In this document: piece by piece, positions 25,632 through 44,558 of the stretch
Numbering within the stretch: the stretch's first letter is position 1
How the letters are laid out: every line of letters starts with the position of its first letter
NCBI GenBank assembly: GCA_965277785.1
Contig: CBDIDP010000014.1
Span: 570,299 to 634,298, forward strand
Direction of reading: 5' to 3'
Origin: Caulobacteraceae bacterium
GTDB taxonomy: Bacteria > Pseudomonadota > Alphaproteobacteria > Caulobacterales > Caulobacteraceae
Length of the DNA stretch: 64,000 nt
Position numbers and translations under genes: made by a program
Notes under the pieces: model-generated
Database searches by the model: none
What the model saw: the letters and a program-made list of their open reading frames with translations, nothing else
What the model was told of the DNA's origin: nothing

Positions 25632-25698
25632 CCGGAGCGCGGTCGTCCCGACCGCGACCCTAGCTTCGTCACCGGCGGACGAGACGTCCGCCCTCCGG
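25632..25698. repeat. Family D REP-like palindrome
   Basis: CCGGAGCGCGGTCGTCCCGACCGC ... GCGGACGAGACGTCCGCCCTCCGG; ends match the element in hemD. Confidence 0.65.
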
Positions 25699-42659: not shown

Positions 42660-43592
42660 ATGACCATGCAACCGATCCTCATCGGCACGCGGGGCTCCCG
42701 CCTCGCCCTTGCCCAGGCCGATACGGTCCGCGCGCGGATCGCCCAAGCCCTCGGCGGCGACGACATGGCGCGGCTGGAGGTCATCACCACCTCCGGCGAC
42801 CGCATCCAGGACCGCACCCTGACCGAGATCGGCGGCAAGGGCCTGTTTACTCTGGAAATCGAGCAGGCGCTGCTGTCAGGCCGCATCCACTGCGCGATCC
42901 ACTCGCTGAAAGACATGCCGGCGGAGGGGCCGCCCGGCCTCACCCTCGCCGCCATCCCGGAGCGCGAAGACCCGCGCGACGCCTTTCTCGGCGTCAATCA
43001 CCAGACGCTGGCCGAGCTGCCGCCGGGAGCGCGGCTCGGCACCGCCAGCCTGCGCCGTCAGGCCCAGTGCCTGCACGACCGGCCGGACCTCGGCATCGTC
43101 AACCTGCGCGGCAACATCGACACCCGGATCGGCAAGATGGCGGCCGGCGAGGCCGACGCCATCCTTCTCGCCATGGCTGGACTCAACCGCCTCGGCCTCG
43201 CCCACCACGCCAGCGGGGTCATCGATCCGGTGTCAAGCCCGCCCGCGCCGGGACAGGGCGCCCTGGCGGTGCAAAGCCGGATCGAAGACTCGGACGCGCC
43301 GTGGCTGGATGCGATCCGGCACCGCGAGACCACCATCGCCGTCGCCGCCGAACGCGGGGCCCTCGTCGCGCTGGAGGGGTCGTGCAAGACCGCCATCGGC
43401 GCCTACGGCGTCCTCGACGGCGACCGCCTGACCCTGATCGTGGAGGCGCTAACCCCGCGCGGGGAGCGCCGCTTCCGGCGCACCGGCGAGGCCGATGTCG
43501 GCGGGGCGGACGGCGAGGCGACGGCGCGGGCGCTGGGCCTGAGCCTCGGCCGCTCGATCCATGCCGAGGCCGGCGACCTGCTGTTGGCGTGA
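42660..43592 (+). CDS. hemC: Hydroxymethylbilane synthase
   Basis: IGTRGSRLALAQ, GGKGLFT.EIE, HSLKD, GTASLRR, RGNIDTR. Confidence 0.95.
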   Translation: MTMQPILIGTRGSRLALAQADTVRARIAQALGGDDMARLEVITTSGDRIQDRTLTEIGGKGLFTLEIEQALLSGRIHCAIHSLKDMPAEGPPGLTLAAIPEREDPRDAFLGVNHQTLAELPPGARLGTASLRRQAQCLHDRPDLGIVNLRGNIDTRIGKMAAGEADAILLAMAGLNRLGLAHHASGVIDPVSSPPAPGQGALAVQSRIEDSDAPWLDAIRHRETTIAVAAERGALVALEGSCKTAIGAYGVLDGDRLTLIVEALTPRGERRFRRTGEADVGGADGEATARALGLSLGRSIHAEAGDLLLA

Positions 43593-44326
43593 AGACGGTC
43601 TGGGTCACCCGCACCCTGCCGGGGGCCGAGGCCACCGCCGGGCGGGTGCGGGCGGCCGGGTTCGAGCCGTTCGTCGCGCCGCTGCTGGAGGTCATGTTCG
43701 AGCCCGGCGGCCCGATCGATCTGACGGACATCACCGCCCTGGCCTTCACCAGCGCCAACGGCGCGCGGGCGTTCGCCGCCCGGTCGGCCCGGCGCGACCT
43801 GCCCGTCTTCGCCGTCGGCCGGGGGACGGCCGGCGCCGCCCGCGACGCCGGCTTCGTCGACGTCACGGCCAGCGACGGCGATGTCTTAGCCCTGGCCGAA
43901 GCCATCCCGCGCGGCGGCGTCGTGCTCCACGCCGGCGCCGCCGAACCCGCCGCCGACCTCGTCCTGGCTCTGGAGAAACGGGGCGTGGCCGCGCGGGGGA
44001 TCGTCGTCTACCGCACGGTTCCGGCGAGATTGTCGGACGCCGCTCTCGCCGCCGCCGCCACGGCCGATTTCGTGTTGCTCCAGTCGGCCAAGGCGGCCCA
44101 AGTTTTCAGCAACCTCAACCTCGATCGTCCCCGGCCGATCTGCCTCTCCGCGGCGGTGAGTCACGCGCTGGCTTCCGGAGCGCGGGCTCCCAGCCCGCAT
44201 CGATCGGCGCCGCTTTCGAGGGATCGGGAAGAGTTGCGGGCTGGGAGCCCGCGCTCCGGGATTAAGGTCGCCGTTGCTCCCACCGAGGAGGCCCTGATCG
44301 CCGCTCTCGTCGAGGCGGCCCGATGA
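43589..44326 (+). CDS. hemD: Uroporphyrinogen-III synthase carrying an in-frame repeat insertion
   Basis: WVTRTLPGA, AFTSANG, FAVGRGTA, VYRTV; GTGA overlap with hemC. Confidence 0.85.
   Translation: MKTVWVTRTLPGAEATAGRVRAAGFEPFVAPLLEVMFEPGGPIDLTDITALAFTSANGARAFAARSARRDLPVFAVGRGTAGAARDAGFVDVTASDGDVLALAEAIPRGGVVLHAGAAEPAADLVLALEKRGVAARGIVVYRTVPARLSDAALAAAATADFVLLQSAKAAQVFSNLNLDRPRPICLSAAVSHALASGARAPSPHRSAPLSRDREELRAGSPRSGIKVAVAPTEEALIAALVEAAR
44175..44259. repeat. Family D REP-like palindrome inside hemD
   Basis: Perfect 25-bp inverted repeat CCGGAGCGCGGGCTCCCAGCCCGCA / TGCGGGCTGGGAGCCCGCGCTCCGG with a 35-nt spacer. Confidence 0.9.
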
Positions 44327-44469
44327 ACGAGCCGCGCGTCCGCATCCTGTCTCCGCTCTTCTGGGCGGCCATGGTGTTCTGCCTCGCGTGCTTCGGCGGC
44401 GCGGCCTATGTCGCCCTGGCTCCGGTTCACCGACCCGCCGCCCTTGGCGTCCACCCGCGCCCGCGCTAA
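44323..44469 (+). CDS. 48-aa small membrane protein
   Basis: ATGA overlap with the hemD stop; MNEPRVRILSPLFWAAMVFCLACFGGAAYVALAP... one TM helix; below the ORF-track cutoff. Confidence 0.5.
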   Translation: MNEPRVRILSPLFWAAMVFCLACFGGAAYVALAPVHRPAALGVHPRPR

Positions 44470-44482
44470 AGGACCGGCCGAG

Positions 44483-44558
44483 GCCGCCTTAGCTCAGCCG
44501 GTAGAGCATCGCATTCGTAATGCGAGGGTCGCGTGTTCGAGTCACGCAGGCGGCGCCA
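44483..44558 (+). tRNA. tRNA-Thr (anticodon CGU)
   Basis: Acceptor GCCGCCT/AGGCGGC; D-arm GCTC/GAGC; anticodon stem TCGCA/TGCGA with loop TTCGTAA; T-arm GCGTG-TTCGAGT-CACGC; encoded CCA. Confidence 0.95.

What the first reader, a model, noticed from the sequence alone, without database searches (positions are those of the whole stretch)
44175..44259. REP-like palindrome inserted in frame inside hemD
Seen: a perfect 25-bp inverted repeat (85 bp in total) lies within the last quarter of hemD. The frame stays open, giving SGARAPSPHRSAPLSRDREELRAGSPRSG between ICLSAAVSHALA and IKVAVAPTEEALI, both normal HemD C-terminal segments. A related element is intergenic at 25632. Established: Rickettsia palindromic elements create peptide inserts this way. 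Inference: selfish DNA adding about 28 residues to a heme-biosynthesis enzyme.
Basis: partly seen in the sequence, partly recalled or inferred. Interest (0 to 1): 0.65.

Follow-up and report, generated by a model that had tools for sequence, protein, structure and literature searches.

The report
REP doublet inserted in-frame in hemD
A small selfish palindromic DNA element has landed inside the only uroporphyrinogen-III synthase gene of this Caulobacteraceae-like bacterium without breaking the reading frame, adding a 28-residue loop; this kind of event is already documented for other genes and species.

Summary
A perfect 25-nt inverted repeat (44175-44199 / 44235-44259, 35-nt spacer) lies at codons 196-224 of hemD (43589-44326).

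- **What it is:** a doublet of a short hairpin repeat (GGAGC-GCGGGCT-CCC-AGCCCGC). The genome holds 134 such units against 3 in a reversed-genome control. 46 of them form inverted doublets, and there are no target-site duplications.
- **Transposase link:** a REP-associated tyrosine transposase (RAYT) gene above the NCBIfam cut-off is flanked by a sister REP subfamily. In two sister species, the hemD-type REP itself flanks a RAYT.
- **Insertion evidence:** all 29 genome orthologs, and the listed database homologs at or above 57% identity, lack the segment. The nearest (76-80% identical, same gene order) are exactly 28 aa shorter.
- **Effect on the protein:** AlphaFold gives a confident U3S fold (pLDDT 91.9). 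The insert is a low-confidence excursion (about 55) in the loop between a helix and the last strand, which also varies in length among relatives. hemD is single-copy, hemE is intact and every invariant C-terminal residue is kept, so the enzyme probably still works. That is inference.
- **Second case:** another doublet sits in frame in the linker of an E2 acyltransferase.

Intragenic REP dimers encoding 20-30 aa were catalogued in 2013, so this is a new member of a known kind and of modest interest.

The parts
43589..44326 (+). hemD (uroporphyrinogen-III synthase), 245 aa. It has a GTG start overlapping the hemC stop. It is the only HEM4-family gene in the genome.
   Evidence: Pfam PF02602 at E 3.9e-24. 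Single PF02602 hit in the genome. The AF2 model's best PDB matches are U3S structures, 3RE1 at E 4.6e-12.
44175..44259 (.). REP doublet (REPIN-like palindrome), 85 nt, of which a net 84 nt is inserted. It is read in frame as residues 196-224.
   Evidence: Perfect 25-nt arms. The segment is absent from all 29 genome orthologs and from the nearest database homologs. It folds as an RNA hairpin of -75.1 kcal/mol, z -6.35.
44175..44199 (+). Left REP unit: CC-GGAGC head, a 7-bp stem GCGGGCT/AGCCCGC with a CCC loop, then A.
   Evidence: Identical to the family master sequence. The arm has 88 matches at 3 mismatches or fewer in the genome, against 0 for the reversed pattern.
44200..44234 (.). Inner spacer of 35 nt, unique in the genome. 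Family spacers range from 6 to 44 nt; the commonest is 11 nt.
   Evidence: The only full-length blastn-short hit is to itself. Spacer census.
44235..44259 (-). Right REP unit, the exact reverse complement of the left unit.
42675..43592 (+). hemC (porphobilinogen deaminase), translationally overlapped with hemD through a GTGA overlap.
   Evidence: Pfam PF01379 at E 2.2e-75 and PF03900. The same tsaD / hemC-hemD-small ORF order is found in relatives.
44323..44469 (+). Conserved 48-aa small hydrophobic ORF. Its ATG overlaps the hemD stop (ATGA), so it lies downstream of the hairpin on the same transcript.
   Evidence: 83% identical over 40 aa to the 50-aa ORF in the same position in relative L063.
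25632..25698 (.). Intergenic doublet of sister REP subfamilies (stems GCGGTCG and GCGGACG).

Best explanation
The palindrome is a non-autonomous mobile element: two copies of a 22-25-nt REP hairpin in inverted orientation (a REPIN-like doublet). It belongs to a genus-restricted, GTAG-type REP family.

Such families are mobilised in trans by a REP-associated tyrosine (HUH/Y1) transposase, which acts on hairpins in single-stranded DNA and leaves no target-site duplication.

One copy inserted into hemD after this lineage split from relatives that are about 80% identical. The net gain is 84 nt and the element has no stop codon in any frame. The gene therefore stayed open and now encodes a 28-residue Ser/Arg/Pro/Ala-rich insert that is probably disordered.

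The insert lies in the loop between helix 188-196 and the last beta-strand of domain 1, a loop whose length varies naturally among orthologs. The enzyme most likely remains active, so the insertion is a tolerated and probably neutral passenger.

- Shown: family membership, the RAYT association, absence from orthologs, the open frame and the predicted loop position.
- Inferred: the transposition mechanism, disorder of the insert and retained enzyme activity.
For: **Repeat family.**
- The arm occurs 88 times at 3 mismatches or fewer in the 3.4-Mb genome, against 0 for the reversed pattern.
- A head-plus-hairpin pattern finds 134 units against 3 in the reversed genome, in 80 clusters of which 46 are '+-' doublets.
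- Five stem subfamilies differ by fully compensated changes: GCGGGCT/AGCCCGC, GCGGTCG/CGACCGC, GCGGACG/CGTCCGC, GCGGGCG/CGCCCGC and GCGGGCA/TGCCCGC. The hairpin is therefore what is conserved.
- There is no target-site duplication: 36 of 46 doublets have none and 9 have 1 nt, which is the chance level.

**Transposase.**
- G000:C13:51949-52599 matches PF01797 and NCBIfam NF047646 'REP-associated tyrosine transposase' at 89.1 bits against a cut-off of 80.
- It is flanked on both sides by REP units.
- In G012 and G020, a RAYT 52-53% identical to it is directly flanked by the hemD-type REP. In G020 the REP head is GTAG.

**Insertion.**
- 29 of 29 orthologs from relatives show a 23-24-aa gap.
- The nearest database homologs (76-80% identity, 217-218 aa, same synteny) are exactly 28 aa shorter.
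- The DNA junction is clean.

**Tolerance.**
- The AF2 model has pLDDT 91.9 overall and about 55-57 only in residues 197-225, and it has a U3S fold.
- The same loop carries 4- and 9-aa natural indels in P0007 and P0013.
- All invariant C-terminal residues (A228, P231, E233, L236, L240, A244) are kept.
- hemD is single-copy and hemE is intact.
- All three frames of the element are stop-free.

**Selection filter.** Apart from hemD and an E2 linker, every doublet examined is intergenic, typically 4-6 nt after a stop codon.

**Precedent.** Intragenic REP dimers encoding 20-30 aa are described in PMC3733652.
Against:
- Both arms are identical to the family master sequence, so the insertion may be very recent. 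In that case the lack of decay downstream says little about selection.
- AlphaFold driven by an ortholog alignment will reproduce the family fold whether or not the insert destabilises it.
- G000 lacks the RAYT type that flanks this REP subfamily in G012 and G020. It has only the C13 RAYT, with sister-subfamily flanks, so the mobilising enzyme in this genome is not identified.
- The head tetranucleotide here is GGAG, not the canonical GTAG.
- No second strain of the species was found to show the empty site or to date the event.
Confidence: 0.8

Rival explanations
1. The insertion is real but has inactivated or crippled HemD. The gene would be a very young pseudogene or hypomorph that selection has not yet purged, in a single sequenced isolate or MAG.
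For: Both arms are perfect and identical to the family master sequence, which suggests a recent event. The own protein is a singleton in a 5.8-billion-protein database, and no other strain carries the insert. The Pfam HEM4 match stops at residue 179. A -75 kcal/mol hairpin inside the coding mRNA could impede translation.
Against: - hemD is the only HEM4 gene, and the downstream enzyme hemE is intact, so loss would block haem synthesis.
- The insert preserves the frame and contains no stop.
- It sits in a loop that naturally varies in length.
- All invariant C-terminal residues are intact.
- Out-of-frame or gene-disrupting copies were not found among 68 family clusters. This implies harmful insertions are efficiently removed.
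Confidence: 0.13
2. The element has been co-opted. The long hairpin in the hemC-hemD-small ORF transcript would regulate mRNA stability or translation of the 3' end of hemD and the coupled 48-aa ORF, or the new loop would give HemD a new interaction.
For: REPs are known to act as mRNA stabilisers and translation-affecting elements (background cited in PMC3733652). The hairpin is very stable. It lies 64 nt upstream of a translationally coupled, conserved small ORF.
Against: No relative has anything comparable at this position. No terminator-like tail follows the hairpin. There is no Rfam family above threshold, only generic long-hairpin matches. The second in-frame copy is read in a different frame, so no conserved peptide is produced. 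There is nothing to suggest selection for the insert.
Confidence: 0.05
3. The element is a conventional MITE derived from a DDE-type insertion sequence with 25-nt terminal inverted repeats, rather than a RAYT-mobilised REP doublet.
For: Superficially it has terminal inverted repeats around a variable core.
Against: - There are no target-site duplications.
- Each 'TIR' is itself a hairpin, with compensatory stem variation between subfamilies.
- Single units occur on their own.
- The only gene-sized interval bracketed '+...-' by family units is the RAYT gene.
- RAYTs in sister species are flanked by exactly this REP.
Confidence: 0.02
4. Assembly artefact: a repeat copy was wrongly spliced into hemD.
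For: REP copies often sit at contig ends in the fragmented sister assembly G012. Reads could not be examined.
Against: The element lies in the middle of a 713-kb contig and is shorter than a typical read. It has a unique 35-nt core found nowhere else in the genome. It is flanked on both sides by collinear hemD sequence that stays in frame.
Confidence: 0.02

Closest known systems
REP / REPIN-RAYT systems (GTAG-type REPs; Nunvar 2010; Bertels & Rainey 2011, PMC3116915; Di Nocera 2013, PMC3733652)
   Same: - Short hairpin units with a conserved 5' tetranucleotide head.
- Mostly extragenic and placed just after stop codons.
- Predominantly arranged as inverted doublets that fold into one long hairpin.
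- No target-site duplication.
- A RAYT gene flanked by the repeats.
- Restricted to one genus, with copy number differing between species (85 units here, 184 in G012, 0-13 in the other genus members searched).
- Occasional intragenic dimers encoding 20-30 aa, including in E2 acyltransferase linkers.
   Different: - The head is GGAG in this genome (GTAG in sister species G020 and G002).
- The RAYT type that flanks this particular stem subfamily in sister species is not found in this assembly.
- The host gene (hemD) is not in the published list of REP-decorated genes.
Rickettsia palindromic elements (RPE; Ogata et al. 2000, as summarised in PMC10969869 and PMC3733652)
   Same: Palindromic selfish DNA inserted in frame into housekeeping genes of an alphaproteobacterium. 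It adds a peptide segment at sites compatible with the protein fold.
   Different: - There is no sequence relationship.
- RPE-1 is about 150 bp, and RPE-4 and RPE-6 are CGTC-tagged and lack a dedicated transposase.
- In Rickettsia nearly half of the copies of some RPE families lie in ORFs, whereas here it is 2 of 46 doublets.
- RPEs of a family tend to encode a conserved peptide, whereas here the two in-gene copies are read in different frames.
Bacterial MITEs that make in-frame fusions (ERIC, BOX, QMITE1, Nezha and others; review PMC10969869)
   Same: Small non-autonomous palindromic repeats that occasionally sit inside ORFs without breaking them.
   Different: MITEs derive from DDE insertion sequences and have terminal inverted repeats plus target-site duplications. 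This family has neither a parent IS nor duplications.

Membership tests
REP / REPIN (RAYT-associated repetitive extragenic palindromes) | Short (20-40 nt) palindromic unit able to form a stem-loop, with the structure conserved | tested here: met
   The unit has a 7-bp stem and a 3-nt loop. Five stem subfamilies differ by fully compensated changes.
REP / REPIN (RAYT-associated repetitive extragenic palindromes) | Many dispersed copies, overwhelmingly extragenic | tested here: met
   134 units against 3 in the reversed-genome control. Only hemD and E2 carry internal copies, and the others examined sit between genes, often 4-6 nt after a stop codon.
REP / REPIN (RAYT-associated repetitive extragenic palindromes) | Inverted doublets as the predominant arrangement (REPIN) | tested here: met
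   46 of 80 clusters are '+-' doublets. The commonest total length is 61 nt, and the palindrome consensus extends to about 67 nt.
REP / REPIN (RAYT-associated repetitive extragenic palindromes) | Conserved GTAG (GT[AG]G) tetranucleotide at one end of the unit | tested here: inconclusive
   The head is GGAG in 116 of 120 family units here. The same REP in sister species G020 and G002 carries GTAG.
REP / REPIN (RAYT-associated repetitive extragenic palindromes) | A RAYT (Y1/HUH transposase) gene flanked by the REPs | tested here: met
   The C13:51949-52599 gene scores 89.1 bits on NF047646 against a cut-off of 80. It is flanked on both sides by sister-subfamily REPs. The hemD-type REP flanks RAYTs in G012 and G020. 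That RAYT type has no closer homolog than the C13 gene in G000.
REP / REPIN (RAYT-associated repetitive extragenic palindromes) | Insertion without target-site duplication | tested here: met
   36 of 46 doublets have no flanking direct repeat and 9 have 1 nt, which is the chance level.
REP / REPIN (RAYT-associated repetitive extragenic palindromes) | Demonstrated mobilisation by the RAYT | not testable with these tools
   This needs in-vitro cleavage or binding assays, or population sequencing. The only indirect evidence is that the CCC-loop master sequence is abundant only in this lineage: 54 units here against 1 exact match in G012.
Rickettsia palindromic elements (RPE) | Sequence membership of an RPE family (about 100-150 bp, or CGTC-tagged units) in Rickettsiales | tested here: not met
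   The unit carries a GGAG/GTAG head and no CGTC tag. Doublets are 56-94 nt long. The host is Caulobacteraceae-like, since the nearest named HemD homologs are labelled Phenylobacterium. RPE features are as described in PMC3733652.
Rickettsia palindromic elements (RPE) | In-frame insertion into housekeeping genes at structurally permissive sites | tested here: met
   The hemD loop and the E2 linker. This is a functional resemblance only.
MITE (IS-derived) | Terminal inverted repeats plus target-site duplication, and a related autonomous IS | tested here: not met
   There is no target-site duplication. No larger element is bracketed by the arms except the RAYT gene.
Uroporphyrinogen-III synthase (HemD, PF02602) | HEM4 domain above the Pfam gathering score, and the two-domain U3S fold | tested here: met
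   85.5 bits against a cut-off of 27.5. The AF2 model has pTM 0.82, and its top PDB matches are 3RE1, 1JR2, 3MW8 and 4ES6.
Uroporphyrinogen-III synthase (HemD, PF02602) | Catalytic activity retained with the insert | not testable with these tools
   Only indirect support: the gene is single-copy, hemE is intact and the invariant residues are kept.

The most novel reading that the evidence does not exclude
The hemD-type REP subfamily amplified in this lineage. The CCC-loop master sequence has 54 units here and is essentially absent from sister species. Yet the genome lacks the RAYT type that flanks this subfamily in G012 and G020.

The subfamily may therefore be cross-mobilised by the heterologous C13 RAYT, which carries sister-subfamily flanks. 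The pristine hemD and E2 copies would then be products of recent, ongoing transposition into coding DNA.

If so, this would be a natural system in which RAYT specificity and REPIN insertion into genes could be tested directly.
Probability: 0.12. Interest if true: 0.5.

Novelty: new member of a known kind. Interest (0 to 1): 0.3.

Why it matters
This is a clean, well-controlled example of how selfish palindromic DNA lengthens proteins. The empty site is visible in close relatives, the element family and a transposase are identified, and the landing site is a naturally length-variable loop of a single-copy biosynthetic enzyme.

It extends the published list of REP-decorated genes to haem biosynthesis and to a Caulobacteraceae-like genus. 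It also repeats a published pattern, since an E2 acyltransferase linker is again a permissive site.

For annotation, such inserts truncate profile matches: HEM4 stops at residue 179 here. They should not be mistaken for pseudogenes. The finding does not change what is known about REPs or about U3S.

Tried and rejected
- **Fixed-window codon scoring of the flanks.** This was too crude. The hemD copy has only 67 nt of gene downstream, so I replaced it with whole-ORF scoring and a flank-joining test.
- **A first regular expression for the unit.** It had a stem-length error and found nothing. It was corrected.
- **Single 'units' inside AcrB-like, GlnE, PhyH-like, L,D-transpeptidase-like and NUDIX genes.** These are chance matches of the relaxed pattern: GGAAG heads, non-family stems and 1 mismatch. 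They were discarded.
- **Five doublets whose joined flanks gave one open coding-like frame.** These are tandem genes with the doublet just after the upstream stop codon (gcvH-gcvP, recN-ligA, after enolase, and others), not disrupted genes.
- **A 637-nt interval bracketed by REPs at C13:59236-59894.** I suspected a decayed RAYT. It has no RAYT similarity and holds what looks like a small toxin-antitoxin pair, judged by eye.
- **Searches for other strains.** A hemD-specific 22-mer and the unique spacer found nothing in metagenome or genome contigs.
- **A profile search of PDB sequences.** It aligned only residues 12-158, so it could not map the insert onto a solved chain.
- Rfam gave only sub-threshold matches to generic hairpin models. 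Earlier notes of this scan concern other loci in the window and did not bear on this finding.

Full report
**1. The observation**

The window carries a perfect inverted repeat. The arms are 44175-44199 and 44235-44259: 25 nt each, 100% complementary, separated by 35 nt. The arm matches the window twice, against 0.01 expected by chance.

It lies inside an ORF that starts with GTG at 43589, overlapping the hemC TGA, and stops at 44326. The 245-aa product matches Pfam HEM4 (uroporphyrinogen-III synthase) at E 3.9e-24. The match covers residues 15-179 only. The gene upstream is hemC.

**2. The palindrome belongs to a repeat family**

The 25-nt arm occurs 88 times at 3 mismatches or fewer in the 3.40-Mb, 17-contig genome. 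The reversed control pattern occurs 0 times.

Each arm is itself a hairpin: a GGAGC head, then a GCGGGCT stem, a CCC loop and AGCCCGC. A pattern requiring the head and a 7-bp stem finds 134 units, against 3 in the reversed genome. They fall into 80 clusters, of which 46 are inverted '+-' doublets.

Family features:
- Five stem variants differ by fully compensated changes, so the hairpin itself is conserved.
- The commonest doublet is 61 nt, with the spacer aTCTTgcgAAAGAt. The palindrome consensus extends to cTTCC...GGAAg.
- Spacers range from 6 to 44 nt. The 35-nt hemD spacer is unique in the genome.
- There are no target-site duplications: 36 of 46 doublets have none.
- No DDE-type element is bracketed by the arms.

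**3. A transposase goes with the family**

The genome has two PF01797 genes. The one at C13:51949-52599 scores 89.1 bits on NCBIfam 'REP-associated tyrosine transposase', above the cut-off of 80. It is flanked on both sides by REP units of the GCGGTCG subfamily. The second gene, on C15, is below the cut-off and has no REP flanks.

Among 40 relatives, the hemD-type REP is found only in the same genus, and patchily. There are 85 units here, 184 in G012, 2-13 in eight other genomes and none in the other 11 genera.

In G012 and G020, a RAYT 52-53% identical to the C13 protein is directly flanked by hemD-type REPs. In G020 and G002 the head is GTAG, the hallmark of RAYT-associated REPs.

G000 has no closer homolog of that RAYT than the C13 gene. 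The enzyme that moved the hemD-type copies in this genome is therefore either lost, missing from the assembly, or the C13 RAYT acting across subfamilies.

The CCC-loop master sequence (54 units) is essentially specific to this lineage, so amplification happened here.

**4. It is an insertion**

HemD orthologs from 29 relatives all show a 23-24-aa gap at the palindrome.

A search of 5.8 billion proteins returned 804 homologs. This protein is a singleton cluster. No listed homolog at or above 57% identity is longer than 227 aa.

The four nearest homologs (76-80% identity) are 217-218 aa, which is exactly 28 aa shorter than this protein. The three of them whose contigs were fetched (P0002, P0003, P0004) lie downstream of hemC. 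The divergent tsaD and the small downstream ORF are seen wherever the contig reaches that far.

At the DNA level the flanks align cleanly. Removing 84 nt restores ALASIKVAVAP, collinear with ALSEAVVAAAP in the relatives. Removing all 85 nt would create a TGA. One terminal base of the perfect palindrome is therefore native or coincidental.

No other strain of the species was found in metagenome or genome collections.

**5. Consequences for the protein**

AlphaFold2, run on a 76-sequence alignment, gives mean pLDDT 91.9 and pTM 0.82. Only residues about 197-225 are of low confidence (55-57). They lie between helix 188-196 and the last strand (226-227), which is followed by the final helix 233-244. 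Foldseek places the model with solved U3S structures: 3RE1 at E 4.6e-12, then 1JR2, 3MW8 and 4ES6.

The insert sits in a helix-to-strand loop. In alpha/beta domains of this kind, ligand-binding residues usually come from the opposite, strand-to-helix loops. That is a general rule applied here as inference.

Points in favour of a working enzyme:
- The same loop carries natural 4- and 9-aa length differences in P0007 and P0013.
- All invariant residues downstream of the insert are kept.
- hemD is the only HEM4 gene, and hemE is intact.

These points make a functional enzyme the more likely reading. They do not prove it, because the pristine arms suggest a recent event.

**6. Consequences for the RNA**

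The element folds into a hairpin of -75.1 kcal/mol, z -6.35. It has no U-tail and is not terminator-like. No Rfam family reaches threshold.

Ribosomes must unwind this hairpin to finish hemD and to reach the translationally coupled, conserved 48-aa ORF downstream. A regulatory effect is possible, but nothing supports it.

**7. Other in-gene copies**

Whole-ORF scoring and a flank-joining test find only one other internal copy. It is an 87-nt doublet at C17:427094-427180, in frame in the linker between the lipoyl and subunit-binding domains of a dihydrolipoamide acyltransferase. The linker is hypervariable in orthologs, so the net gain cannot be measured. It is read in a different frame from the hemD copy.

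A single unit also overlaps the last codons of a cobA-like methyltransferase gene.

The remaining doublets examined are intergenic, typically 4-6 nt after a stop codon. No disrupted gene was detected. The element is stop-free in all frames. Survival of only frame-preserving copies at permissive sites is what purifying selection on random insertion would leave.

**8. Comparison with what is known**

Di Nocera et al. 2013 (PMC3733652) catalogued GTAG- and CGTC-tagged REPs. They reported REPs entirely inside ORFs in several species. [quoted passage not shown] Their supplement lists REP dimers in the two E2 acyltransferase genes of O. terrae. hemD is not listed.

Rickettsia palindromic elements are the classic case of in-frame selfish DNA (PMC10969869). 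They are a different, CGTC-tagged or longer family with no dedicated transposase. The hemD element works like them but is not one of them.

**9. Verdict**

The element is a REP doublet of a RAYT-associated family, inserted in frame into a permissive loop of the sole HemD. It is a new member of a known kind, and interest is modest.

Untested here: read support, expression, enzyme activity, and which RAYT mobilises this subfamily.

Noticed in passing
G000:C17:427094-427180 (outside the window): A second REP doublet (GCGGGCG stem subfamily, 87 nt) lies in frame in the lipoyl-to-E3-binding-domain linker of a dihydrolipoamide acyltransferase E2, encoding ...PRSAGVPPASEAEIAPAVEAKQDAGGTPALRSG.... The same kind of host site is listed for O. 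terrae in PMC3733652.
   Followed up: partly
G000:C13:51827-52656 (outside the window): A RAYT gene (188 aa from the first Met, HUH motif HVHVL) is flanked by three REP units on one side and two on the other, forming a 'REPtron'. The genome has no closer homolog of the RAYT type that flanks the hemD-type REP in sister genomes G012 and G020.
   Followed up: partly
G000:C4:90345-90366 (outside the window): A single family REP unit (GCGGACG stem) overlaps the last approximately 10 codons and the stop of a cobA-like uroporphyrin-III C-methyltransferase gene. It may supply that gene's C-terminal tail.
   Followed up: no
G000:C13:59236-59920 (outside the window): A 637-nt interval bracketed by REP units holds two small minus-strand ORFs. 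By eye they look like a ParE/RelE-type toxin and a ribbon-helix-helix antitoxin. No family search was run.
   Followed up: no
window 44323-44469 (+): A conserved 48-aa hydrophobic small ORF (MNEPRVRILSPLFWAAMVFCLACFGGAAYVAL...) has a start codon that overlaps the hemD stop (ATGA). It is 83% identical to the ORF in the same position in a relative. No Pfam search of this frame was run; the query was read in a different frame.
   Followed up: partly
window 44483-44558 (+): tRNA-Thr (CGT) lies immediately downstream of the hemCD-small ORF cluster. In relatives L063 and L067 other protein genes follow instead, so the neighbourhood differs after the small ORF.
   Followed up: no
G000:C16:269746-269817 (outside the window): A REP doublet lies between recN and ligA. 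The open frame of ligA runs through the doublet, so the ligA start codon may lie inside or just after the repeat.
   Followed up: no
G012 (sister genome), many contig ends: The TTC-loop variant of the same REP has 184 units in G012, and many sit within 100 nt of contig ends. The repeats probably fragment that assembly.
   Followed up: no
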